NCBI GenBank assembly: GCA_963677595.1
Contig: OY782041.1
Span: forward strand, 1,760,001 to 1,824,000
Direction: 5' to 3'
From: Spirochaetia bacterium
GTDB taxonomy: Bacteria > Spirochaetota > Spirochaetia > CAKZLE01
DNA length: 64,000 nucleotides
How positions within the stretch are numbered: the stretch's first letter is position 1; each line of letters starts with the position of its first letter. The notes under the pieces are model-generated. The model was not told where the DNA came from and did not search any database. It was given only the letters and a program-made list of their open reading frames with translations. Below, one piece after another: positions 1 through 12,943 of the stretch. The translations under genes and the position numbers were made by a program.

Positions 1-735
1 ACCCTGTTCGATGAGTATATGAGAGACGGGTCCTTTCCCTATCTTTCCAGCTCTGGTGGTGACGAGCAGGTGGTCAAGCCGTATCTCGAAGGGCTCTTTC
101 ACACGATACTGATCAAGGATATCGCGAGCAGGGAACAGGTCTCAGATATACAGCAGCTTGAGAATATCGTGAAGGTCTTGGCCAGCAGTGTCGGCAGTCC
201 CATCTCGATCAAGCGTATATGTGATACGCTGGTATCAGCAGGCCGCCCGATCGCCCTCAACACGGTATCAAGCTATGTGAAGGCCCTGACTGACAGCTAC
301 CTCTTCTACCAGGTCGCACGCTATGATGTCCGGGGCCGGCAGTTCCTCCGGACCAACGGCAAGTATTATCTGGTAGATAGTGGTATCAGGAACCATCTGC
401 TGTCAGGTTCATCATCCGACCTTGGCCATATCATAGAGAATATCGTCTATCTTGAACTTCGTCGGAGGTACGGAAAGGTCAATATAGGGAAACTTGACAA
501 ACGGGAGATCGATTTCGTTGCGGTTTCTCACAGTGAGACTGTCTATTATCAGGTAACAGCAACCATGATGGACGAGAAGACAGCAGAACGGGAACTGGCT
601 CCGCTGAGAAAGATCAGGGATAATCACCGGAAGATCGTATTGAGCCTGGATGAGTTCCTGGTTCCGGCAGATTATGACGGCATCAAACACCTGAATCTTA
701 TTGACTGGCTGCTTGAAGAGGATCTGCGGGTGTGA
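1..735 (+). CDS. ATP-binding protein, AAA_14 + DUF4143 family (5'-truncated by window edge)
   Basis: Frame is open from base 1. C-terminal DUF4143-type motifs: KYYLVDSGIRN, ENIVYLEL, EIDFVA..YYQV. Confidence 0.85.
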   Translation, partial: TLFDEYMRDGSFPYLSSSGGDEQVVKPYLEGLFHTILIKDIASREQVSDIQQLENIVKVLASSVGSPISIKRICDTLVSAGRPIALNTVSSYVKALTDSYLFYQVARYDVRGRQFLRTNGKYYLVDSGIRNHLLSGSSSDLGHIIENIVYLELRRRYGKVNIGKLDKREIDFVAVSHSETVYYQVTATMMDEKTAERELAPLRKIRDNHRKIVLSLDEFLVPADYDGIKHLNLIDWLLEEDLRV

Positions 736-869: not shown

Positions 870-1964
870 TTAGTTCGTCTTGTAGACCAGTACGAGACCT
901 GATCTCTGGAATACCTGTGCGACTTCCGTCAACTCCATGCCGGCTGCATCAGCGGCGATGAGGTTGGAGACCCAGGTCACGCCGAAGTCGACCTGTCCTG
1001 TGTAGACTGCCGTGGTCTCCCCGATGTCACCGCCCCCTGGGACGATGGTCACGTTCAGACCGGCTTCTTCGTAGTAGCCCTTGGCAAGGGCTACGTAGTA
1101 CCCCATGAACTGTGCCTGGGGTAGCCATTTCAGCTGGATGCTGACGTCTGTTTTCTCGACTGGGAATGAACCGGATGAAGCCATGGCCTCCTCCCAGTAC
1201 GATGCATCCCTGATGTCATCGAGGGTCATCGCATCGAGTGCTGCGGCAGCGACGGAGTCCTCGAGCTTGATATAGGTCTTTGCCAACTCCAGGGTCTGCC
1301 CCATCGCGTCCTCATCGATCTTGCCGTAGACCGTGACCTTGTTGCCCATGGTGTCCGTCTCGACGAGCTTCTTCACCTCAGCGGCCATATATGCCTGGTG
1401 CTCAGGTGATACGGAGGAGCCGTAGTCGAACACGATCTCGGCAGCCTCTTCCGGGTTCGCACAGGCATACTCCCAGCCCTTCATGGAAGCGTAGATGAAC
1501 GCCTTTACCGTGTTCGGGTTCGCAGCGGCGAAGTCAGCCGTGGTGAACAGGTTGTCCTCGAGCATGGCCACACCCTCGTCGTTCATGTCGATGAACGAAG
1601 CCTGGTCCCCATAGCCGTAGCCGCCGTCATAGCTGTTCTTGACCAGCCCGAGCTCATTGTAGGTCATGGCTGATGCCAGCAGGATCGAATCATCATCGAA
1701 GCCGTCCATGTCGAATGCCTGGCTCAGGTACGACGTGGGAAGGTCATACTTGGTCAGCAGGGCAAGGACCTCATACTCGTTACCGAGACCCCAGTTTCCC
1801 ACCTGGCCCTTCGTGGCCGCATCGGTCACGATCGACTTGACGGATGCATCTGCTGCGTAATAGGAACTCTCCTCCGCAGTCTCTGTATTGCCGCCGGCGA
1901 ACGCACTTGCAGCAGCCGCAAAAAGAACAATCATAAGAAAAACGATTTTGCTCAACCTCTTCAT
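870..1964 (-). CDS. ABC transporter substrate-binding protein, NMT1/THI5-like (pyrimidine-type), apparently circularly permuted
   Basis: Signal peptide MKRLSK..AFAGG. Motifs GNWGLGNEYE, AMTYNE, LEDNLF, ASMKGW. The usual N-terminal QLKWLPQAQFMGYYVA..KGYY block sits at the C-terminus. Start moved to ATG 1964 (GAGGAG RBS). Confidence 0.85.
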   Translation of the reverse strand: MKRLSKIVFLMIVLFAAAASAFAGGNTETAEESSYYAADASVKSIVTDAATKGQVGNWGLGNEYEVLALLTKYDLPTSYLSQAFDMDGFDDDSILLASAMTYNELGLVKNSYDGGYGYGDQASFIDMNDEGVAMLEDNLFTTADFAAANPNTVKAFIYASMKGWEYACANPEEAAEIVFDYGSSVSPEHQAYMAAEVKKLVETDTMGNKVTVYGKIDEDAMGQTLELAKTYIKLEDSVAAAALDAMTLDDIRDASYWEEAMASSGSFPVEKTDVSIQLKWLPQAQFMGYYVALAKGYYEEAGLNVTIVPGGGDIGETTAVYTGQVDFGVTWVSNLIAADAAGMELTEVAQVFQRSGLVLVYKTN

Positions 1965-2007: not shown

Positions 2008-2817
2008 TTACGGACGGCCTTTCATGCTCACTCTCTCTACCGCGAGCAGGATCACGTACATGGTGATCCCGATCGCGATCGCCGCGATGATATACGCCCA
2101 GGCAGTCGCGTACTGCGCAAGGACGATGTTCTCCCGTATCTGCCTGCCGACCCCGATGATGTACTCAGCGAAGTACTCGCTCACCATGGCGCTGATCACG
2201 CTTGCCGGGACACTGACCCGCAGCGCGGTGAAGATATAGGGGACAGAGTTCGGTACCTTCAGCTTCAGGAAGATCGTCCCCTTGCCTGCGGCGAACGACT
2301 TCATCAGGTCTTCGGAGAAGGGCTTCAGCTCCGTGAACCCCCTGTAGGCGTTGACGCTCATGGACACCGTGCAGGTGATCATGACGACCAGGATCTTCGC
2401 CAGCATGCTCCGGATGTTCGGGTCCCTGCTGAAATCCTTGGTAAGGTTATTGAGGATCGGGGCGATCGCTATGATCGGTATGGCGTTGAATGACGCGACG
2501 ACCGATAGGCCCCCGACACCCCATTTCGGGAAGCCTGAAGCGATGATCGCGAGCAGGTACCCGAGCAGTGAGCCCAGGAGGAGCCCGCCGAGGGCCACGA
2601 TGACCGTAGCCCGCATGTTGATGAGGATCTTCCCGATGTTCTCGGTGATGATCCCGATGATCCGCCCCGGGAGGGGCAGGGTGAACGTGTCAGCCCCGAG
2701 GAAGTGGTGCAGGATCTGCGACTGCCACAGGATGATGACGATCACACCCAGCAGTACGGGCATGGCGATCGTTGAGAACCTGTTCCGGTCAAACCTGTTT
2801 CGTGCCATACTGATCAC
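2008..2817 (-). CDS. ABC transporter permease (SsuC/NitT family)
   Basis: Multiple TM helices; EAA-like loop DLMKSFAAG..IFLKLKVPNSVPYIF. Confidence 0.9.
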   Translation of the reverse strand: MISMARNRFDRNRFSTIAMPVLLGVIVIILWQSQILHHFLGADTFTLPLPGRIIGIITENIGKILINMRATVIVALGGLLLGSLLGYLLAIIASGFPKWGVGGLSVVASFNAIPIIAIAPILNNLTKDFSRDPNIRSMLAKILVVMITCTVSMSVNAYRGFTELKPFSEDLMKSFAAGKGTIFLKLKVPNSVPYIFTALRVSVPASVISAMVSEYFAEYIIGVGRQIRENIVLAQYATAWAYIIAAIAIGITMYVILLAVERVSMKGRP

Positions 2818-3632
2818 CTCGCTCCCTTGGCTTTCTCATGCGGAGAGAAGACCTTCTCCGCGAAGGACATGAGTTTGTAGCTCAGGATTCCCACTGCGGC
2901 ACTGAAGAAGACGATCTGCCAGAACACGAAGATGGACATGGCATGCTTCAGCGACTGGGACAGCATCGTCCCCAGTCCAGCCCCGCCCTGCAGCGTGTCG
3001 ACGAGGATCGAGGCCGTGATCGCCATGGGTGCGGCGATCTTCAGGCCGGAGAAGATATAAGGGATGCTCGTCGGCAGGAGCAGCTTCGTGTAGATATGCC
3101 AGCGGTTCGCTGCCAGGGAGTGCATGAGGTCGTACTTCTCCTTCTCCACCGACTTGAGCCCGTCCAGCATGTTCGTTGCCACGGGGTAGAAGGTCAGGAT
3201 CGCCGCGATGACGATACGGCTCTCGTTAATATCCTGGGTGATCGCGAGGACGATCGGCGCCATCCCGAGGATGGGGATCATCTGGATCATCATCAGGTAG
3301 GGGAATACCGCCTTCTCGACCTGCGACACCAGGTTCATCGCCAGGGCGAGGAAGAACCCGACCACCGCCCCGATACCGAACCCGATACCGGCCCGCAGCA
3401 GCGTGATCCCTGCATTCGTGATGACGATCTGGAACGCAGTCTGTTTGTTGCTGACCATCTTGTCGCTGAAGACAGAGGCGACGATCTGTCCCAGATGGGG
3501 CAGGACGTTCTCAGGGGTCCGTTTCGTATGTTCTATGACGGTCGCACCGATCTCCCAAACGATGATGAGGGCGATGACCCAGACGAGGATCACCAACCGG
3601 TCCGCCAGTTTGTCTTTCCGGGCTTTTGTCAT
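2814..3632 (-). CDS. ABC transporter permease (SsuC/NitT family)
   Basis: TM helices; QMIPILGMAP and DLMHSLAA..KLLLPTSIPYIFSGLK motifs; overlaps both neighbours. Confidence 0.9.
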   Translation of the reverse strand: MTKARKDKLADRLVILVWVIALIIVWEIGATVIEHTKRTPENVLPHLGQIVASVFSDKMVSNKQTAFQIVITNAGITLLRAGIGFGIGAVVGFFLALAMNLVSQVEKAVFPYLMMIQMIPILGMAPIVLAITQDINESRIVIAAILTFYPVATNMLDGLKSVEKEKYDLMHSLAANRWHIYTKLLLPTSIPYIFSGLKIAAPMAITASILVDTLQGGAGLGTMLSQSLKHAMSIFVFWQIVFFSAAVGILSYKLMSFAEKVFSPHEKAKGAR

Positions 3633-4414
3633 TCGTAGATTCCTTCAAAGCTGTTCCGTACCCGTGATACGAGGGTAGCGAACTCCGCAGTCTCCCGGAG
3701 AGCCATCTCCCGTGGTCTCGGCAGGTCGATATGGACGACAGCCGACACCCTCCCGGGGTGGGGCGAGAGCACCACGACGTCATCGGAGAGGAAGACCGAC
3801 TCCCGTATATTATGGGTCACGAAGAGGATGGTCTTCTTCGTCTCCTGCCAGATCCGCAGGAGGTCGATCTGCAGTTTCTCCTTGGTGAACTCATCAAGGG
3901 CGGAGAACGGCTCATCCATCAGGAGGATCTCAGGATCCAGCGCCAGGGCCCGCGCGATCCCGACCCGCTGCTGCATCCCGCCGCTGAGCTGATGCGGGTA
4001 CTTCCTCCCGAACTTGGTGAGCCCCACCAGTTCGAGGACCTCATCAACCCTCCGGGTCCGCTCCTTCTTATGCAGGCCGATGACCTCCATCGGCATGCAT
4101 ATGTTGCGCCGCACGGTCCTCCAGTCATAGAGGACCGGGCTCTGGAAGACGATGCCGTACTTCTGGCTCAACCGGATCTCCCTGGGGGTACGCCCCTTCA
4201 CGGAGATGATCCCCGAGGTCATCTCCTGGAGATCCGCTATGGACCTCAGCAGGGTGGTCTTCCCGCAGCCTGACGGTCCGAGCAGTGAAACGAAGGAACC
4301 CTCCTTGATGGCTATGTTCACATCCTTCAGGGCCTGGATATCGCCCCCATTGTCCTTATCCGGGAAATTGACACATAACCCCTTGATGTTGATCTCAGTC
4401 TCGTTCGTTTCCAC
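3629..4414 (-). CDS. ABC transporter ATP-binding protein (SsuB/TauB family)
   Basis: Walker A GPSGCGKT, signature LSGGMQQR, Walker B LLMDEPF. Start placed at GTG 4414 (AAGGA RBS) because ATG 4480 overlaps the sigma54 promoter. Confidence 0.92.
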   Translation of the reverse strand: METNETEINIKGLCVNFPDKDNGGDIQALKDVNIAIKEGSFVSLLGPSGCGKTTLLRSIADLQEMTSGIISVKGRTPREIRLSQKYGIVFQSPVLYDWRTVRRNICMPMEVIGLHKKERTRRVDEVLELVGLTKFGRKYPHQLSGGMQQRVGIARALALDPEILLMDEPFSALDEFTKEKLQIDLLRIWQETKKTILFVTHNIRESVFLSDDVVVLSPHPGRVSAVVHIDLPRPREMALRETAEFATLVSRVRNSFEGIYE

Positions 4415-4463
4415 TATCTCGTTCCTTGCACATCTGTAGTTTTTCGTATTGACACTAAACAGT

Positions 4464-4479
4464 AGCAATTTATGTGCCA
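4464..4479 (-). promoter_or_regulatory. sigma54 -24/-12 promoter for the ABC importer operon
   Basis: Minus strand reads TGGCACATAAATTGCT, matching consensus TGGCAC-N5-TTGCT with exact GG-N10-GC spacing. Confidence 0.85.
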
Positions 4480-4669
4480 TAATCGCAGGACTCCAGGTTT
4501 TTCAGGCTGTATACAGGTGATTGGGAATGGTCCCATATGAAGAAGATCTCTATATATAAGGATTTATTGAACTGTTCCTGCATGATCGGCTCGGGAAGAG
4601 GAATAGTCTCCCAAAGCCCGGACCAGTGGGACAGAGAAAGGGGTTAGGCAGGTAATATTCATACGTAAA

Positions 4670-4938: not shown

Positions 4939-6201
4939 ATGTACACATGCAGCTTAGACAGGATGACAGACAAGATCAAGACGTTCAGCACATTCGGCGA
5001 TGCAGGACATGGGGGAATCACCCGGTACACCCTCTCCCCTGAGGATATAGAGGCCCGCAACGAGTTCATACGGAGGATGGAAGCCATCGGGGCAGCCATC
5101 GAGTTCGATGATGTCGCGAATGTCTATGCCACCTTACCGGGGTCCGACCCGGATGCCAAGCGGATCGTCATGGGGTCACACACGGACTCCGTGAAGAACG
5201 GCGGGAACTATGACGGGATCCTCGGGGTCCAGTCCGCCATGGAGGTCCTCGAGACTGTCGCCGAACAGGGGATCGAACATACCCATCCCCTGACTGCCAT
5301 GATCTGGACGAACGAGGAAGGGTCCCTCTACCCGCCGGCGATGATGGTATCCGGGATCGTATGCTATGACTTCCTCCCCGAGGCTATCAAGGGGAAGTTC
5401 AAGTATGAGGACATGCTCGCATCAGTGAGCGTGCTCGATCCCTCCGATACCTTCGGCGATGCCCTCGAGCGGTCAGGCTTCAAGGGCGAGAAGAAATACC
5501 GGCTCCACCCTGACAACTACCAGAGCATGTTCGAGATCCATATCGAGCAGGGACCGATCCTGGAAGATGCCGGGAAGAACATCGGTGTCGTCGACTGCGT
5601 CCTGGGAATGTTCAACTACCGGTTCAGGTTCTACGGCCAGACCGTCCATGCGGGGACCTTCCCGATGCCCAAGCGGCAGGATGCCCTGTATGCGGCATCC
5701 CAGGTGATCTGCCATCTCCATGAGGAGATCGACAAGCTCGGGTACCCCGAGCTGGTGTATACCACCGGGGAGATCGTCTGCCACCCCAACGTCCATACCT
5801 GTGTCCCCGACTATGTGGACTTCTGCATCGACGTACGGCATGAGAGCCCCGAGGTCCTCGGGGAGGTCCTCGCGATCGTCACGGGCTGTGCTGATCAGGA
5901 ATGGGCCGGCTGTCGGTGCGAGGTCGGGAAGATGTGGAACCGGGATACCGTCTACTGGGACAAGAAGCTGTTCAGCTATGTGAAAGAAGCCGCTGAAGAG
6001 GTGGGTTCCTCCCACATGGTCCTCCACTCAGGTGCCGGGCACGATGCACAGTTCGCCGCATACATGATGCCGACGACCATGCTCTTCGTTCAGTCCAAGG
6101 ACGGCCTCTCCCACTGCGAACCGGAGTACTCAACACCGGAGCAGTGCACCGAGGGAGCGACCGTGCTGTTGAACGCAGTCCTGAAGGCTGACCGGGAGTA
6201 G
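4939..6201 (+). CDS. pydC: Zn-dependent M20 amidohydrolase, beta-ureidopropionase / N-carbamoyl-amino acid hydrolase
   Basis: GSHTDSV..GGNYDG, NEEG, EIHIEQGP and SGAGHDAQ motifs; operon with preA and hydA. Confidence 0.85.
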   Translation: MYTCSLDRMTDKIKTFSTFGDAGHGGITRYTLSPEDIEARNEFIRRMEAIGAAIEFDDVANVYATLPGSDPDAKRIVMGSHTDSVKNGGNYDGILGVQSAMEVLETVAEQGIEHTHPLTAMIWTNEEGSLYPPAMMVSGIVCYDFLPEAIKGKFKYEDMLASVSVLDPSDTFGDALERSGFKGEKKYRLHPDNYQSMFEIHIEQGPILEDAGKNIGVVDCVLGMFNYRFRFYGQTVHAGTFPMPKRQDALYAASQVICHLHEEIDKLGYPELVYTTGEIVCHPNVHTCVPDYVDFCIDVRHESPEVLGEVLAIVTGCADQEWAGCRCEVGKMWNRDTVYWDKKLFSYVKEAAEEVGSSHMVLHSGAGHDAQFAAYMMPTTMLFVQSKDGLSHCEPEYSTPEQCTEGATVLLNAVLKADRE

Positions 6202-6204
6202 GGC

Positions 6205-7395
6205 ATGAGTCTATTAGCGACAGATATCTGCGGGATCCCGCTGGAGAATCCGTTTCTCGTGGCATCAGCATCACCGTCGGCCACGATCGAGATGATCGAG
6301 CGCTCGTTCATCGCGGGTTGGGCCGGTGTGGTCACCAAGACCATAAAACCCGATTTCATGCAAATCGAGGACGCACGGCCCCGGTTCAACGTCGTGAAGG
6401 ACGGGAAACGCATCATCGGCTTCGAGAACTTCGAGCTGGTCAGCAAGAAGGACCTCTCCTACTGGCTTGACGGGATCGCCTACCTGAAGGGGAAATACCC
6501 GACCAAGGCCGTGATCGCGAGCATCATGGGTGACAGCGGCAGGGAGTCCTGGAGCGGACTGGCCAAGGCGATCGAAGCAGCAGGGGCAGATGCCGTAGAG
6601 CTCAACTTCTCCTGCCCCCACGGCATGCCCGAGATGGGCGTCGGGGCGGCAGTCGGCCAGAACCCCGAGATCATCGAGCGGATCACCTCCTGGGTCAAGG
6701 AGGCAGTCTCCATACCCGTGATCGTGAAGCTCACGCCGAACGTGACCAGTATCGAGCAGGCTGCCGAGGCAGGGATACGGGGCGGTGCTGACGGGTTCGC
6801 AGCGATCAATACCGTGGAATCCCTGTCGGGGATCGACCTCGAGACCTTCGAGCCGCTCCCGAGCGTGAACGGCATGTCCACCTACGGTGGACTGTCGGGG
6901 AAGGCGGTCAAGCCGATCGGCCTTCGGGCGGTCTCCCAGATCGCCAGGAGCCAGCGTGCCCCGATCATGGGGATCGGCGGCATCTCGAACTGGAGCGATG
7001 CCCTCGAGTACATGGCTGTCGGGGCATCCTCGGTACAGGTGTGCACCGAGGTCATGCTCAGGGGCTTCGATATCGTGGGGGAGATGATCTCCGGTACCGA
7101 AGCTTACCTGAAGCGCAAGGAGTTCACATCGGTGACCCAGGTCATAGGACAGGCGATCGGGAAACTCACCAGCCATGAGAACCTCGTGAAGAACGCCCCG
7201 CTGACGGCGGTCGTCGACACGGAAGCCTGCATCGGCTGCGGCAAATGTGTCGTTGCCTGTGAGGACGGCGGCTACCATGCTGTGGCATTAGTGAACAAGA
7301 AAGCGCAGGTAGACAGCAGCTTATGTGACGGCTGCTCCCTGTGCACCCATATCTGCCCGGTAGGGGCATTGAGACTTGAGAGGATGGAGGCTTAG
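6205..7395 (+). CDS. preA: Dihydropyrimidine dehydrogenase FMN/Fe-S subunit
   Basis: ENPFLVAS, ENFELVS, ELNFSCPHGMPE, KLTPNVT, INT motifs; C-terminal 2x CxxCxxCxxxC ferredoxin domain. Confidence 0.93.
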   Translation: MSLLATDICGIPLENPFLVASASPSATIEMIERSFIAGWAGVVTKTIKPDFMQIEDARPRFNVVKDGKRIIGFENFELVSKKDLSYWLDGIAYLKGKYPTKAVIASIMGDSGRESWSGLAKAIEAAGADAVELNFSCPHGMPEMGVGAAVGQNPEIIERITSWVKEAVSIPVIVKLTPNVTSIEQAAEAGIRGGADGFAAINTVESLSGIDLETFEPLPSVNGMSTYGGLSGKAVKPIGLRAVSQIARSQRAPIMGIGGISNWSDALEYMAVGASSVQVCTEVMLRGFDIVGEMISGTEAYLKRKEFTSVTQVIGQAIGKLTSHENLVKNAPLTAVVDTEACIGCGKCVVACEDGGYHAVALVNKKAQVDSSLCDGCSLCTHICPVGALRLERMEA

Positions 7396-8817: not shown

Positions 8818-9927
8818 ATGATCGAGCAGAACTATATGCCGGTTATGGTCATGACCGGCAGGGATTGTGTGCGCGAAAGCGGTGATACCCTGGACTCCCT
8901 CGGGAAGAAGGCCCTCGTGGTATGCGGGTACCAGTCAGCTGACCGGAACGGGGCCATCGATGATATTACCCATGCCCTCGATGAAGCCGGTATGGGCTGC
9001 TGGATCTACCGGGGCGTATCACCGAACCCGACGGTCGAGCAGGTACGAACGATTGCCGGAGCAGCGAGGGAGCAGGGCTGCGACCTCGTCATCGCGATCG
9101 GCGGCGGGTCGGTCATCGATGCCGCGAAGGCGGCAGCGATCCTGGCAGCCCATGATTTGACCGACGATGAATTGTTCACCCGCAAGGAGTTCGATGACGC
9201 CCTCCCCATCGTCGCGATCCCTACCACGGCAGGGACCGGCAGCGAGGTGACGCAGTACGCAATCCTCACCAACGTCGCCAAGGAGACGAAATCCTTCGTG
9301 ACAAGCTATGCGATCTTCCCGCAGGTATCGTTCCTCGACGGGAAGTATATGAAAGACCTGCCTGCGGAGACGACGGTACATACGGCGATCGATGCACTGA
9401 GCCATGCCGTCGAGGGATACCTTGCGGCAAGGTCCACCGCCTATGGGCGGGTACTGGCCCTTGAGGCCATCAGGCTCCTCGCCCCTGCCCTGAAGAAGCT
9501 GCACACACCAGAGGACCTCTCCTTAGAAGACCGGGACAGCCTCCTCTATGCCTCGATGCTGGCAGGGATCGTCATATCGCAGAGCGGCACGACGGCAGTC
9601 CATGCCGCAGGCTACTCCCTGACCTACTTCAAGCATGTGGACCACGGGCGGGCCAACGGGCTGCTGATGCCCACATACCTCGAGTTCCTCTCCAAGGAGC
9701 GAACGGAAGAGGTCTCGGCCATCCTTGGAGCGATGGGATTGTCTTCTCTCCCAGAGTTCAGGAGCTTGTGCTTCTCGCTGCTGAGTGTTGAACCACTGAC
9801 GGAAGAGGAGGTCACTACCTTCTCTGAGATTGCCATACAGGCTGGGAACATACAGAACACGGTCCCGAGACCGACGATCGATATCTTACAGGACATGCTG
9901 CGTGATGCTGCAGGAAGAGGAGAATGA
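8818..9927 (+). CDS. Iron-containing alcohol dehydrogenase, probable malonic semialdehyde reductase (PydE-like)
   Basis: GGGSVIDAAK, PTTAGTGSEVT, DALSHAVE, H..HG motifs; context in the pyd operon. Confidence 0.8.
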   Translation: MIEQNYMPVMVMTGRDCVRESGDTLDSLGKKALVVCGYQSADRNGAIDDITHALDEAGMGCWIYRGVSPNPTVEQVRTIAGAAREQGCDLVIAIGGGSVIDAAKAAAILAAHDLTDDELFTRKEFDDALPIVAIPTTAGTGSEVTQYAILTNVAKETKSFVTSYAIFPQVSFLDGKYMKDLPAETTVHTAIDALSHAVEGYLAARSTAYGRVLALEAIRLLAPALKKLHTPEDLSLEDRDSLLYASMLAGIVISQSGTTAVHAAGYSLTYFKHVDHGRANGLLMPTYLEFLSKERTEEVSAILGAMGLSSLPEFRSLCFSLLSVEPLTEEEVTTFSEIAIQAGNIQNTVPRPTIDILQDMLRDAAGRGE

Positions 9928-11297: not shown

Positions 11298-11606
11298 TCA
11301 TGATACTGCGATTCCCTCTAATGCGATGATATATTCCAGTGAACCATTCAGTTGGCTTCGCGTGGTGAAATCAGGTTCGGAGAGAACAAGGATATCCATG
11401 GCCATGGAAAGATACTTCCTGGCTTCTACACGAATGTCATAGATCAGGTCAAAGGGATCCTTGGACAATGAAGGAAATACCGCACATAAGTCCAGATCGC
11501 TGTCCTTGGTGGTATTGCCGGTTGCTTGGGATCCAAACACTATGAACCGTGCTTCGGGGAAAGCCTGTTTCAACTTCTGTATCGCCTGAACGATATCTTC
11601 ATTCAT
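11298..11606 (-). CDS. Minimal nucleotidyltransferase (MNT-type)
   Basis: FGSQATG..DSDLDL (GS..DxD) motif plus third Asp in MDIL; about 102 aa. Confidence 0.8.
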   Translation of the reverse strand: MNEDIVQAIQKLKQAFPEARFIVFGSQATGNTTKDSDLDLCAVFPSLSKDPFDLIYDIRVEARKYLSMAMDILVLSEPDFTTRSQLNGSLEYIIALEGIAVS

Positions 11607-11711
11607 GATTCTTCCTTGTAGCTGAATTCTACAAGAGAATAATGGGTGATGCAATCATCAGCAGCGGCTTCTCACGTGGTTGTATATTCCAATGGGAACA
11701 CTCCTATAGGC

Positions 11712-11761
11712 TGGGTGTGAATTGTAAAATGAATTGACAATTTACACCCACGGGCTACACT
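11712..11761 (+). promoter_or_regulatory. sigma70 promoter overlapped by an inverted repeat
   Basis: TTGACA (11734)-N16-TACACT (11756). Inverted repeat TGGGTGTGAATTGT / ACAATTTACACCCA (13/14 match) spans 11712-11750. Confidence 0.6.
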
Positions 11762-11767
11762 GTACCT

Positions 11768-12943
11768 ATGGTTGAACGAGAGATCAGTGCCAAAGTACTG
11801 GAATATGCCTCCTATTTCCCGGTAGTGACGATCACGGGCCCAAGGCAGTCGGGAAAGACCACCCTGGCAAAAGCCTTGTTTCCTGAGAAGCCCTATGTCT
11901 CACTCGAAGAGGTGGACCAGAGAAAGCATGCACAGTCAGACCCGCGGGGGTTCCTCTCGCAGTATCCTGATGGTGCAGTCCTCGATGAAGCTCAGCGGGT
12001 ACCGGACCTCTTCTCCTATATACAGACGATAGTGGATCAGGTTGACAGGAGAGGGCTCTTCATCATAACAGGCAGCCAGCAGTTCGGCATGCTCTCCCCT
12101 GTTTCGCAGTCATTGGCCGGGAGTACTGCCTTGGTGGAGCTGCTGCCGTTCACCATCGGGGAGGCGTATGGTGCCAAAGGCCTGCGGAACCTGGACTCCA
12201 TCAGCCTTGATGAGGTTCTCTGTACCGGTTTCCTTCCCAGAATATTCGACAGCCAGGCACCCCCGGCTGATGTGAACAGGTTCTATGTCCAGACCTACCT
12301 TGAGCGCGATGTCAGGCAGCTGCTTCAGTTCCGCGATATGTCGCGCTTCGAGGACTTCCTCTACCTGTGCGCCGGCAGGACCGGGCAGCTGGTCAATCTC
12401 TCGGCGATCAGTGATGAACTGGGGCTCAGCCACAATACCATCAAGGCATGGCTCTCGGTCCTGGAGGCATCGTATATCATCAGGATGGTATATCCCTACC
12501 ATAAGAGGATCACGAGGAGGGTGGTGAAGACCCCGAAGCTCTACTTTCTCGATATCGGGGTCGCCTGCTCCCTGCTGGGTATCAGTTCAGCGGAACACCT
12601 TGTCCGCCACCCGCTTCGCGGGGCGTTGTATGAGACCATGGTCGTCACAGAGATCCTTAAGCAGCGGTTGAATAGGGGATTGGATGACAGGATCTATTTC
12701 TATCGGGACCAGAAAGGGAATGAGGTCGACCTGGTGATCGAGGAGGGGCAGCGGCTGCACCTCATCGAGATGAAATCCTCCAGGACGATGAACAGCAGCT
12801 TCCTGAAGGGGTTCCTGCGGTTCCCGCAGGAGGGGCAGCAGGTAGCTTCAAGGAGTATCATCTATGACGGGGAACATACCGGTCCCTACCATGAGGCCCG
12901 AATCTGGAACTGGAAAGAGGCTGCTTCCCTGGATATCTACTGA
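11768..12943 (+). CDS. ATP-binding protein, AAA_14 + DUF4143 family
   Basis: GPRQSGKTT, LDEAQ, TGSQQF, KTPKLYFLDIG and EVDLVIE..IEMK motifs. Confidence 0.9.
   Translation: MVEREISAKVLEYASYFPVVTITGPRQSGKTTLAKALFPEKPYVSLEEVDQRKHAQSDPRGFLSQYPDGAVLDEAQRVPDLFSYIQTIVDQVDRRGLFIITGSQQFGMLSPVSQSLAGSTALVELLPFTIGEAYGAKGLRNLDSISLDEVLCTGFLPRIFDSQAPPADVNRFYVQTYLERDVRQLLQFRDMSRFEDFLYLCAGRTGQLVNLSAISDELGLSHNTIKAWLSVLEASYIIRMVYPYHKRITRRVVKTPKLYFLDIGVACSLLGISSAEHLVRHPLRGALYETMVVTEILKQRLNRGLDDRIYFYRDQKGNEVDLVIEEGQRLHLIEMKSSRTMNSSFLKGFLRFPQEGQQVASRSIIYDGEHTGPYHEARIWNWKEAASLDIY

What the first reader, a model, noticed from the sequence alone, without database searches (positions are those of the whole stretch)
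870..1964. Circularly permuted NMT1/THI5-type binding protein
Seen: after the signal peptide the protein starts with KGQVGNWGLGNEYE..MTYNE..LED..ASMKGW. The block DVSIQLKWLPQAQFMGYYVALAKGYYEEAGLNVTIVPGG..AQVFQRSGLVLVYK forms the last ~92 residues (nt 870-1148). Established, from my recall of the family: in pyrimidine-type NMT1/THI5 SBPs the QLKW..QAQF.GYYVA block is N-terminal and leads directly into the KG..G.W..GNEY segment. Inference: a natural circular permutation in a single intact ORF. It begins and ends exactly where the canonical chain would be cut.
Basis: partly seen in the sequence, partly recalled or inferred. Interest (0 to 1): 0.7.

Follow-up and report, generated by a model that had tools for sequence, protein, structure and literature searches.

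The report
Circularly permuted pyrimidine-transporter binding protein
The solute-binding protein of this bacterial ABC importer has the first ~90 residues of the usual chain moved to its end, a real rearrangement shared by many spirochaetes and Clostridia, and it likely captures uracil-type pyrimidines for the breakdown genes next door; such rewiring is known in other binding-protein families, but I found no description of it in this one.

Summary
Confirmed. ORF 870-1964 (-) is one intact 364-aa NMT1/THI5 (PF09084) binding protein with its halves swapped. Residues 54-260 match 155-353 of a canonical Clostridium butyricum homolog, and 276-364 match 54-142. A canonical control aligns colinearly to the same PDB chains. 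It is not an assembly artefact: the swapped order holds in 120 of 120 top homologs and 80 of 80 GTDB loci, and contigs of one run bridge the junction. Permuted proteins form one clade (100/100) nested among canonical ones, and both halves share the same canonical relatives (57-73% identity). This fits a single permutation event. AlphaFold gives a confident type II binding-protein fold (pLDDT 89.8). Its best structural match is OpuAC, part of a published permuted group. The gene ends an ABC operon beside reductive pyrimidine-catabolism genes, so pyrimidine uptake is likely but untested. No close tandem intermediate was found. Natural permutation is known in other binding proteins (OpuAC/ProX, TpMglB-2), and this scan noted the same family in another genome. 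New variant of a known kind.

The parts
870..1964 (-). Gene for the circularly permuted NMT1/THI5-family substrate-binding protein (364 aa, P0001)
1896..1964 (-). Predicted N-terminal export signal (about residues 1-23): basic start, hydrophobic core, no Cys lipobox
   Evidence: read from the sequence; no signal-peptide predictor was run
1185..1865 (-). Segment B (residues 34-260) = canonical middle and C-terminal part (lobe 2, second crossover, C-terminal helices), now N-terminal
   Evidence: 54-260 = C. butyricum 155-353; model 4-233 (protein 34-263) aligns to Thi5 4H67 95-306, Z 9.7, rmsd 3.2, 198 aligned
1149..1184 (-). New linker (about residues 261-272) joining the old C-terminus to the old N-terminus
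   Evidence: rotation scan; linkers of similar length in 10 permuted homologs printed; pLDDT about 93-96 there
870..1148 (-). Segment A (residues 273-364) = canonical N-terminal part (QLKW..QAQF..GYYVA block up to the first crossover strand), now C-terminal
   Evidence: 276-364 = C. butyricum 54-142
2008..2817 (-). ABC permease (BPD_transp_1)
   Evidence: matched in 80 of 80 loci
2814..3632 (-). ABC permease (BPD_transp_1)
   Evidence: matched in 80 of 80 loci
3629..4480 (-). ABC ATPase (NitT/TauT-like)
   Evidence: matched in 75 of 80 loci
4939..6201 (+). Hydantoinase/carbamoylase-family amidohydrolase (likely beta-ureidopropionase, PydC)
   Evidence: TIGR01879 and NF006771 above cut-off; 59 of 80 loci
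6205..7395 (+). Dihydropyrimidine dehydrogenase PreA/PydA (FMN + 4Fe-4S); no PreT-like gene beside it, as in ferredoxin-dependent PydAc
   Evidence: NF006183 483 bits, cut-off 335; 72 of 80 loci; ORF lists; PMC7332683
7376..8803 (+). Dihydropyrimidinase (HydA/PydB)
   Evidence: TIGR02033 579 bits, cut-off 393; 76 of 80 loci
8818..9927 (+). Iron-containing alcohol dehydrogenase (likely malonic semialdehyde reductase, PydE)
   Evidence: PF00465; role inferred from the Pyd cluster legend in PMC7332683
9830..11254 (+). Class III aminotransferase (likely beta-alanine aminotransferase, PydD); true start probably downstream of the listed TTG
   Evidence: PF00202, NF004718 above cut-off; 61 of 80 loci

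Best explanation
This gene encodes an NMT1/THI5-family ABC binding protein whose chain is naturally circularly permuted, predicted to keep the normal two-lobed fold and likely to deliver uracil/thymine or a related pyrimidine to the adjacent permeases for the neighbouring reductive breakdown pathway. Shown: the order is signal peptide, B (canonical ~95 to end), ~12-residue linker, A (canonical 1 to ~90). All sampled permuted copies form one clade inside the canonical family, and both halves have the same canonical relatives. Predicted: a confident type II fold. Inferred: the cut lies just after the first inter-lobe crossover strand, so the new N-terminus sits near the start of lobe 2 and the old termini are joined inside lobe 1. 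Both hinge strands and the cleft would stay intact, and the protein would work as an ordinary Venus-flytrap receptor whose N-terminal anchor now hangs from the other lobe. Inferred origin: one event in a canonical ancestor of the Treponema/Clostridia-type subfamily, most likely in-frame tandem duplication (SP-A-B-A-B) followed by internal loss of the first A and truncation after the second A. The transporter cassette then likely spread between phyla.
For: Reversed matches. The canonical control P0363 is colinear with 4NMY 6-244 and 3IX1 2-273. Swapped order in 120 of 120 top homologs, 80 of 80 loci and 47 of 119 rows classified from the P0135 search. Permuted clade 100/100 on joined halves (24 permuted, 50 canonical rows), and 99/95 and 100/100 on halves A and B separately. 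Close canonical proteins are 53-58% identical over B and 57-73% over A. 74 positions are kept in at least 95% of 24 permuted and at least 90% of 41 close canonical proteins, including W58, E63, Y64, M100, N103, E104, D137, W280, Q283, Q285 and F286. AF2 pLDDT 89.8, pTM 0.90. Thi5 95-306 aligns to protein 34-263. Pyrimidine-catabolism genes flank it: hydA in 76, preA in 72, aminotransferase in 61 and pydC in 59 of 80 loci. Canonical relatives sit in the same slot of the same cluster.
Against: No ligand binding or expression was tested. No close tandem or A-B-A intermediate was found, so the duplication route is not shown. I could not inspect model coordinates, so the insertion of the last strand into lobe 2 rests on homology. 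Sequence support for A and the start of B being pseudo-symmetric repeats was not significant (hhalign E 0.09, probability 0.6%).
Confidence: 0.8

Rival explanations
1. The permutation is real, but the ligand is not a free pyrimidine base. It may be a pathway intermediate (dihydrouracil, N-carbamoyl-beta-alanine), a nucleoside, a hydantoin or a thiamine-pyrimidine precursor as for ThiY.
For: The nearest solved relatives bind a thiamine-pyrimidine precursor or are Thi5 enzymes (3IX1, 4H67). The neighbouring amidohydrolases belong to families with hydantoin and allantoate members.
Against: PreA, the enzyme that acts on the free base, is in 72 of 80 loci. The genes annotated around three canonical homologs include no thiamine genes; the 80 permuted loci were searched only with this window's own genes. 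Identity to ThiY/Thi5 is low (E 1e-6 to 1e-8).
Confidence: 0.13
2. The swapped order arose by fission and refusion or cut-and-paste within one gene, or by recombination between two close paralogs, and not through a tandem-duplicate intermediate. This concerns only the route and is compatible with the function above.
For: No close tandem intermediate: 5 hits longer than 637 aa were signalling fusions; 0 of 119 rows had A-B-A or B-A-B; the junction pattern found 2 metagenome loci, both single canonical genes. The sister groups for A and B are not fully resolved (P0139 for A, an open fork for B).
Against: Both halves trace to the same canonical subfamily, with no core segment lost. Tandem A-B-A-B NMT1 proteins do exist (3 of 150 representatives, 30-33% identity), so duplication happens in this family. 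Intermediates are expected to be short-lived (general knowledge).
Confidence: 0.35
3. The order is an assembly or annotation artefact of this genome.
For: None found. P0036, a homolog with an internal repeat of B1, shows that odd assemblies exist in the databases.
Against: 80 of 80 loci from separate assemblies, including complete isolate genomes, have the same order. Two contigs of run X1 span nt 1062-1338 and no joint is listed (X1 may be the source sample).
Confidence: 0.01

Closest known systems
Canonical NMT1/THI5-family (PF09084) binding proteins: PDB 4NMY, ThiY 3IX1, Thi5 4H67/4ESX; and the canonical Pyd-cluster proteins of C. butyricum (WP_024041184), Deinococcus, Azospirillum and Treponema primitia ZAS-2 (P0363)
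   Same: Same family, motifs and operon slot (ATPase-permease-permease-SBP next to hydA/preA in C. butyricum). 53-73% identity per half to the closest canonical forms.
   Different: The first ~90 residues are moved to the C-terminus, a new ~12-residue linker joins the old termini, and the N-terminal anchor attaches to lobe 2. In lipobox-bearing members, the spacer from the Cys to the first core strand has a median of 51 residues (145 permuted; about 20 of these are the N-terminal helix segment) against 17 (58 canonical).
B. subtilis OpuAC (PDB 2B4L) versus ProX (1R9L, 1SW1): circular permutation among glycine-betaine-binding type II proteins (PMC2395249, section 11 read)
   Same: Natural permutation in a type II binding protein. 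OpuAC is the top structural match in all three fold searches (Z 10.4-10.8, 211-219 aligned, rmsd about 5; next unrelated row Z 8.8), which suggests a similar order of parts.
   Different: Different family and ligand, 13-16% identity, hence an independent event (inferred). Other type II proteins also align over model 21-334 with fewer residues (145-229), so the range alone does not prove the same cut point.
Treponema pallidum TpMglB-2 (Tp0684), 'Type Ic / Cluster Bc' (PMC4990184; section 6 part 1 of 2, section 8 and passages read)
   Same: The N-terminal 70-100 residues are moved to the C-terminus in an ABC binding protein. It is found in spirochaetes and Gram-positive gut bacteria, binding is retained, and the authors suggest tethering and horizontal transfer.
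   Different: Type I sugar-binding fold, with a fourth hinge crossover created and only 13% identity in the moved part. Here the fold is type II, the moved part stays 57-73% identical to close canonical sisters, and no extra crossover is expected.

Membership tests
NMT1/THI5-like SBP (PF09084) | Pfam score above the gathering threshold | tested here: met
   104.3 bits vs 20.5, in two stretches
NMT1/THI5-like SBP (PF09084) | Type II periplasmic-binding-protein fold | tested here: met
   AF2 model pLDDT 89.8; Thi5 Z 9.7 over 198 residues; all top rows are type II folds. Predicted model only.
NMT1/THI5-like SBP (PF09084) | Canonical N-to-C order (QLKW block first) | tested here: not met
   Reversed; hence a permuted variant of the family
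ABC importer binding protein | N-terminal export signal and adjacent permease and ATPase genes | tested here: met
   Signal-like N-terminus read from the sequence; two permeases and an ATPase upstream
Natural circular permutant | Both segments homologous to one parent family in swapped order, with no core part missing | tested here: met
Natural circular permutant | Single intact ORF conserved in independent genomes | tested here: met
Natural circular permutant | Same 3D fold and activity shown experimentally | not testable with these tools
   Prediction only; no solved structure in the same order among 6 PDB sequence hits
Permutation by duplication | Close tandem or partial-duplicate intermediate exists | tested here: inconclusive
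   None close; the searches were capped, and the long-protein search is weak by its own note
Pyd (reductive pyrimidine) transporter | Linked to pydA/pydB/pydC | tested here: met
Pyd (reductive pyrimidine) transporter | Binds a pyrimidine | not testable with these tools
   No binding data; no paper on this transporter seen in the listings
OpuAC/ProX betaine-binding family | Sequence membership | tested here: not met
   Only PF09084 hit at E<=0.01; 13-16% identity in structural alignments

The most novel reading that the evidence does not exclude
This is an undescribed, recent, single-origin circular permutation of a type II binding protein with living canonical sisters about 60% identical in the same operon slot. 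It cuts at a point equivalent to the independent OpuAC permutation. That would mean type II binding proteins have a preferred, lobe-swapping permutation site, and that selection (for example moving the membrane anchor to the other lobe) let the permuted cassette replace the canonical one across several phyla.
Probability: 0.3. Interest if true: 0.6.

Novelty: new variant of a known kind. Interest (0 to 1): 0.4.

Why it matters
Close natural pairs of permuted and unpermuted proteins with the same job are rare. The published TpMglB-2 case has only 13% identity in the moved part; here the halves are 53-73% identical to canonical sisters in the same gene cluster. The pair makes it directly testable whether permutation is neutral or changes stability, affinity, hinge dynamics, permease docking or tolerance to membrane tethering (an idea raised in PMC4990184). 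It also gives a natural permutation site for biosensor design, and flags the likely uptake system for pyrimidine catabolism in many gut and anaerobic Clostridia. It does not reveal a new biological mechanism.

Tried and rejected
Assembly artefact: rejected.

Tandem intermediates: the 'longer' search gave 5 hits, all signalling fusions. Three A-B-A-B representatives are distant, 30-33% identity. A degenerate pattern for a permuted-type A end followed by a B start gave 2 metagenome loci, both single canonical genes. The own genome has no close second copy; the other tblastn hits are at 35% identity or less.

DNA microhomology at the junctions: the longest shared words are 6-7 nt, i.e. nothing.

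'Tethering requires the permutation': not supported, since 58 of 93 canonical proteins held also have a lipobox-like motif, against 145 of 183 permuted (simple regex).

Pseudo-symmetry of A and the start of B by profile alignment: not significant.

The control fold of canonical P0363 failed without an alignment (pLDDT 33.8) and was not used.

Expression: no RNA holder was listed. Runs X2 and X4 gave only patchy cover and are not used as evidence. Promoter and terminator scans were at shuffle level. Base composition of the operon shows no clear foreign signal (GC 0.57-0.61 vs genome 0.55).

Literature: no description of a permuted NMT1/THI5 protein was seen in the search listings (top rows only; the library lacks most subscription papers). 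The L. lactis OpuAC paper (PMC2861598, passages) does not use the words permut, swap or invert. PMC8694067 (passages) mentions permutation only generally. PMC11036815 (passages) gave pathway background only. PMC6816092 (extended Pyd pathway) was not held. Supplements were not read; the CPSARST supplementary lists could hold further binding-protein pairs.

Full report
Observation. Window 870-1964 on the minus strand is one open frame of 364 aa. Its only Pfam family at E<=0.01 is NMT1 (PF09084, 104 bits, two stretches), and the N-terminal part of the profile (2-81) falls on the last 80 residues. Against PDB 4NMY the two matches are in reversed order, and Thi5, Thi13 and 3IX1 match by their first ~85 residues to query 274-354. 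A tblastn of plasmids gave two-piece hits. I fetched three of them (C. butyricum, Azospirillum, Deinococcus), and all match in swapped order: query 54-260 = 155-353 (45%) and query 276-364 = 54-142 (62%) for C. butyricum. Rotating the mature sequence raised alignment scores by 53-82% against four canonical proteins, with the best cut at residues 263-274. As a control, the canonical protein P0363 aligns to 4NMY and 3IX1 as a single colinear stretch. From residue 34 these align structurally to Thi5 from residue 95 and replace the short segment that follows the first crossover in canonical proteins.

Not an artefact. The homolog search gave 2917 hits among 7994 scored candidates. All 120 listed cover the query in the permuted order; one carries an internal repeat. 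The GTDB scan found 389 stretches encoding relatives and kept the best 80. All 80 are B-then-A, from Spirochaetales, Lachnospiraceae, Christensenellales, Oscillospiraceae and a Moduliflexus-type genome, including complete isolate genomes. The other 309 were not returned, so their order is unknown. Two contigs of run X1 span nt 1062-1338 across the junction, with no joint or indel listed; X1 may be the source sample. Among the best 150 representatives at 50% clustering, 108 were in canonical order, 5 in permuted order, 3 were A-B-A-B tandems and 34 were fragments with only one side. So the permuted form is a tight subfamily inside a larger canonical family.

Origin. A search with the nearest canonical representative (P0135) returned canonical proteins that are closer still. 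Where named, these come from Treponema (including T. primitia ZAS-2), Sphaerochaeta and Clostridium. It also returned more divergent permuted proteins (Ruminococcus, Butyrivibrio). Of 119 rows classified, 72 were A-B, 47 were B-A and none was A-B-A or B-A-B. The closest canonical proteins are 53-58% identical over B and 57-73% over A. In a tree of the joined halves (74 hand-picked rows: 24 permuted, 41 close canonical, 9 outgroup), the permuted proteins form one clade (100/100) nested within canonical proteins (96/93 with the Treponema-type group, P0357 and P0139). Separate trees of A and B agree (97/93 and 100/100; 99/95 and 100/100). So the permutation is derived, most simply arose once, and both halves come from the same subfamily. 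Several outgroup branches are long, and the exact sister is unresolved. Because the protein is exported, a duplication route needs SP-A-B-A-B, an internal in-frame loss of the first A and a stop after the second A (inference). No close intermediate was found, so the route stays open.

Spread. Distribution is patchy. At E<=1e-15, 4 of 401 genomes sampled from the phylum match (2 permuted including this one, 1 canonical, 1 fragment), and 6 of 61 relatives match (4 permuted including this one, 2 distant canonical). None of 5 same-family genomes matches. Transporter genes are mostly 65-76% identical to those of Bacillota loci, while HydA and PreA are about 40%. The spirochaete-labelled rows nest among rows labelled Bacillota. 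This suggests horizontal transfer of the transporter cassette; direction was not formally tested.

Structure. AlphaFold2 on the mature chain (136-row alignment of permuted homologs) gave pLDDT 89.8 and pTM 0.90, with no low-confidence segment and high confidence over the new linker. VIA-align matches protein 34-263 to Thi5 95-306 (Z 9.7, rmsd 3.2, 198 residues), which is what a sequential aligner should give for a permutant. The top match in all three fold searches is B. subtilis OpuAC (Z 10.4-10.8, 211-219 residues, rmsd about 5). OpuAC 2B4L is one of the betaine-binding proteins reported as circular permutants of each other (PMC2395249, section 11). Other type II folds also align end to end with fewer residues, so an identical cut site is suggested but not shown. 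From recalled type II topology, the last strand of A is the first inter-lobe crossover. Ending the chain there keeps both hinge strands and puts the new N-terminus near the start of lobe 2. The secondary-structure order fits this, but I could not inspect coordinates, and the sequence test for pseudo-symmetry was not significant. 74 positions are conserved across permuted and close canonical proteins, consistent with an unchanged ligand site.

Function. The gene ends an ATPase-permease-permease-SBP operon. This is divergent from genes for a carbamoylase, PreA, dihydropyrimidinase, an Fe-alcohol dehydrogenase and a class III aminotransferase, which match PydC, PydA, PydB, PydE and PydD as listed in PMC7332683 (passages and section 19 read). 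No PreT-like gene is adjacent, as in ferredoxin-dependent PydAc. Within 5 kb flanks of the 80 loci, matches at 35% identity or more were: both permeases 80, hydA 76, ATPase 75, preA 72, aminotransferase 61, pydC 59; Fe-ADH matches were common but mostly about 30%. Canonical relatives occupy the same slot. Pyrimidine import for use as a nitrogen source is therefore the likely role; the ligand is untested.

Known versus new. Natural permutation of ABC binding proteins is published for OpuAC/ProX (type II) and TpMglB-2 (type I; PMC4990184), the latter also in spirochaetes and Gram-positive gut bacteria, with tethering proposed as a cause. Tethering alone does not explain this case, as 58 of 93 canonical relatives held also carry a lipobox-like motif. 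The permuted lipoproteins do have a longer spacer (median 51 vs 17 residues, partly due to the extra N-terminal helix). I saw no description of a permuted NMT1/THI5 protein in six search listings. This scan's notes hold the same family from another genome (e1-6715816) and permutations in several other binding-protein families; these are unchecked notes and are not used as support.

Verdict: real, a new variant of a known kind, valuable mainly as a clean natural experiment; interest 0.4.

Noticed in passing
window 6205-7395: PreA/PydA with FMN and 4Fe-4S domains but no adjacent PreT/Pyr_redox gene, i.e. probably the ferredoxin-dependent PydAc type described for Clostridia (PMC7332683), here in a probable spirochaete.
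   Followed up: partly
window 4939-6201 vs L081:3907-5169: The carbamoylase is 73% identical to that of C. butyricum but only about 50% to those of the Bacillota loci with the permuted SBP, while the transporter shows the opposite pattern: the cluster is a mosaic.
   Followed up: no
P0394, P0410: Permuted homologs with a twin-arginine-like signal (SRRQFL) followed by a lipobox, suggesting Tat export of the permuted protein in another lineage.
   Followed up: no
P0154, P0183, P0206; P0122-P0126: NMT1 domains occur as tandem A-B-A-B pairs (one labelled archaeal) and as sensor domains fused to histidine kinases or GGDEF/EAL proteins.
   Followed up: partly
P0036: Permuted homolog with an internal repeat of about 55 residues of lobe 2; a single contig, possibly a mis-assembly.
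   Followed up: no
window 1-735 and 11298-12943: The transporter-Pyd cluster is flanked by a DUF4143 gene on the left and, on the right, a small nucleotidyltransferase-like ORF and a similar-looking AAA/DUF4143-type gene (read from the sequence, not scanned). Run X1 shows strain-level variants across the region.
   Followed up: no
L038:2050-5142: About 2 kb of extra DNA lies between the second permease and the permuted SBP gene.
   Followed up: no
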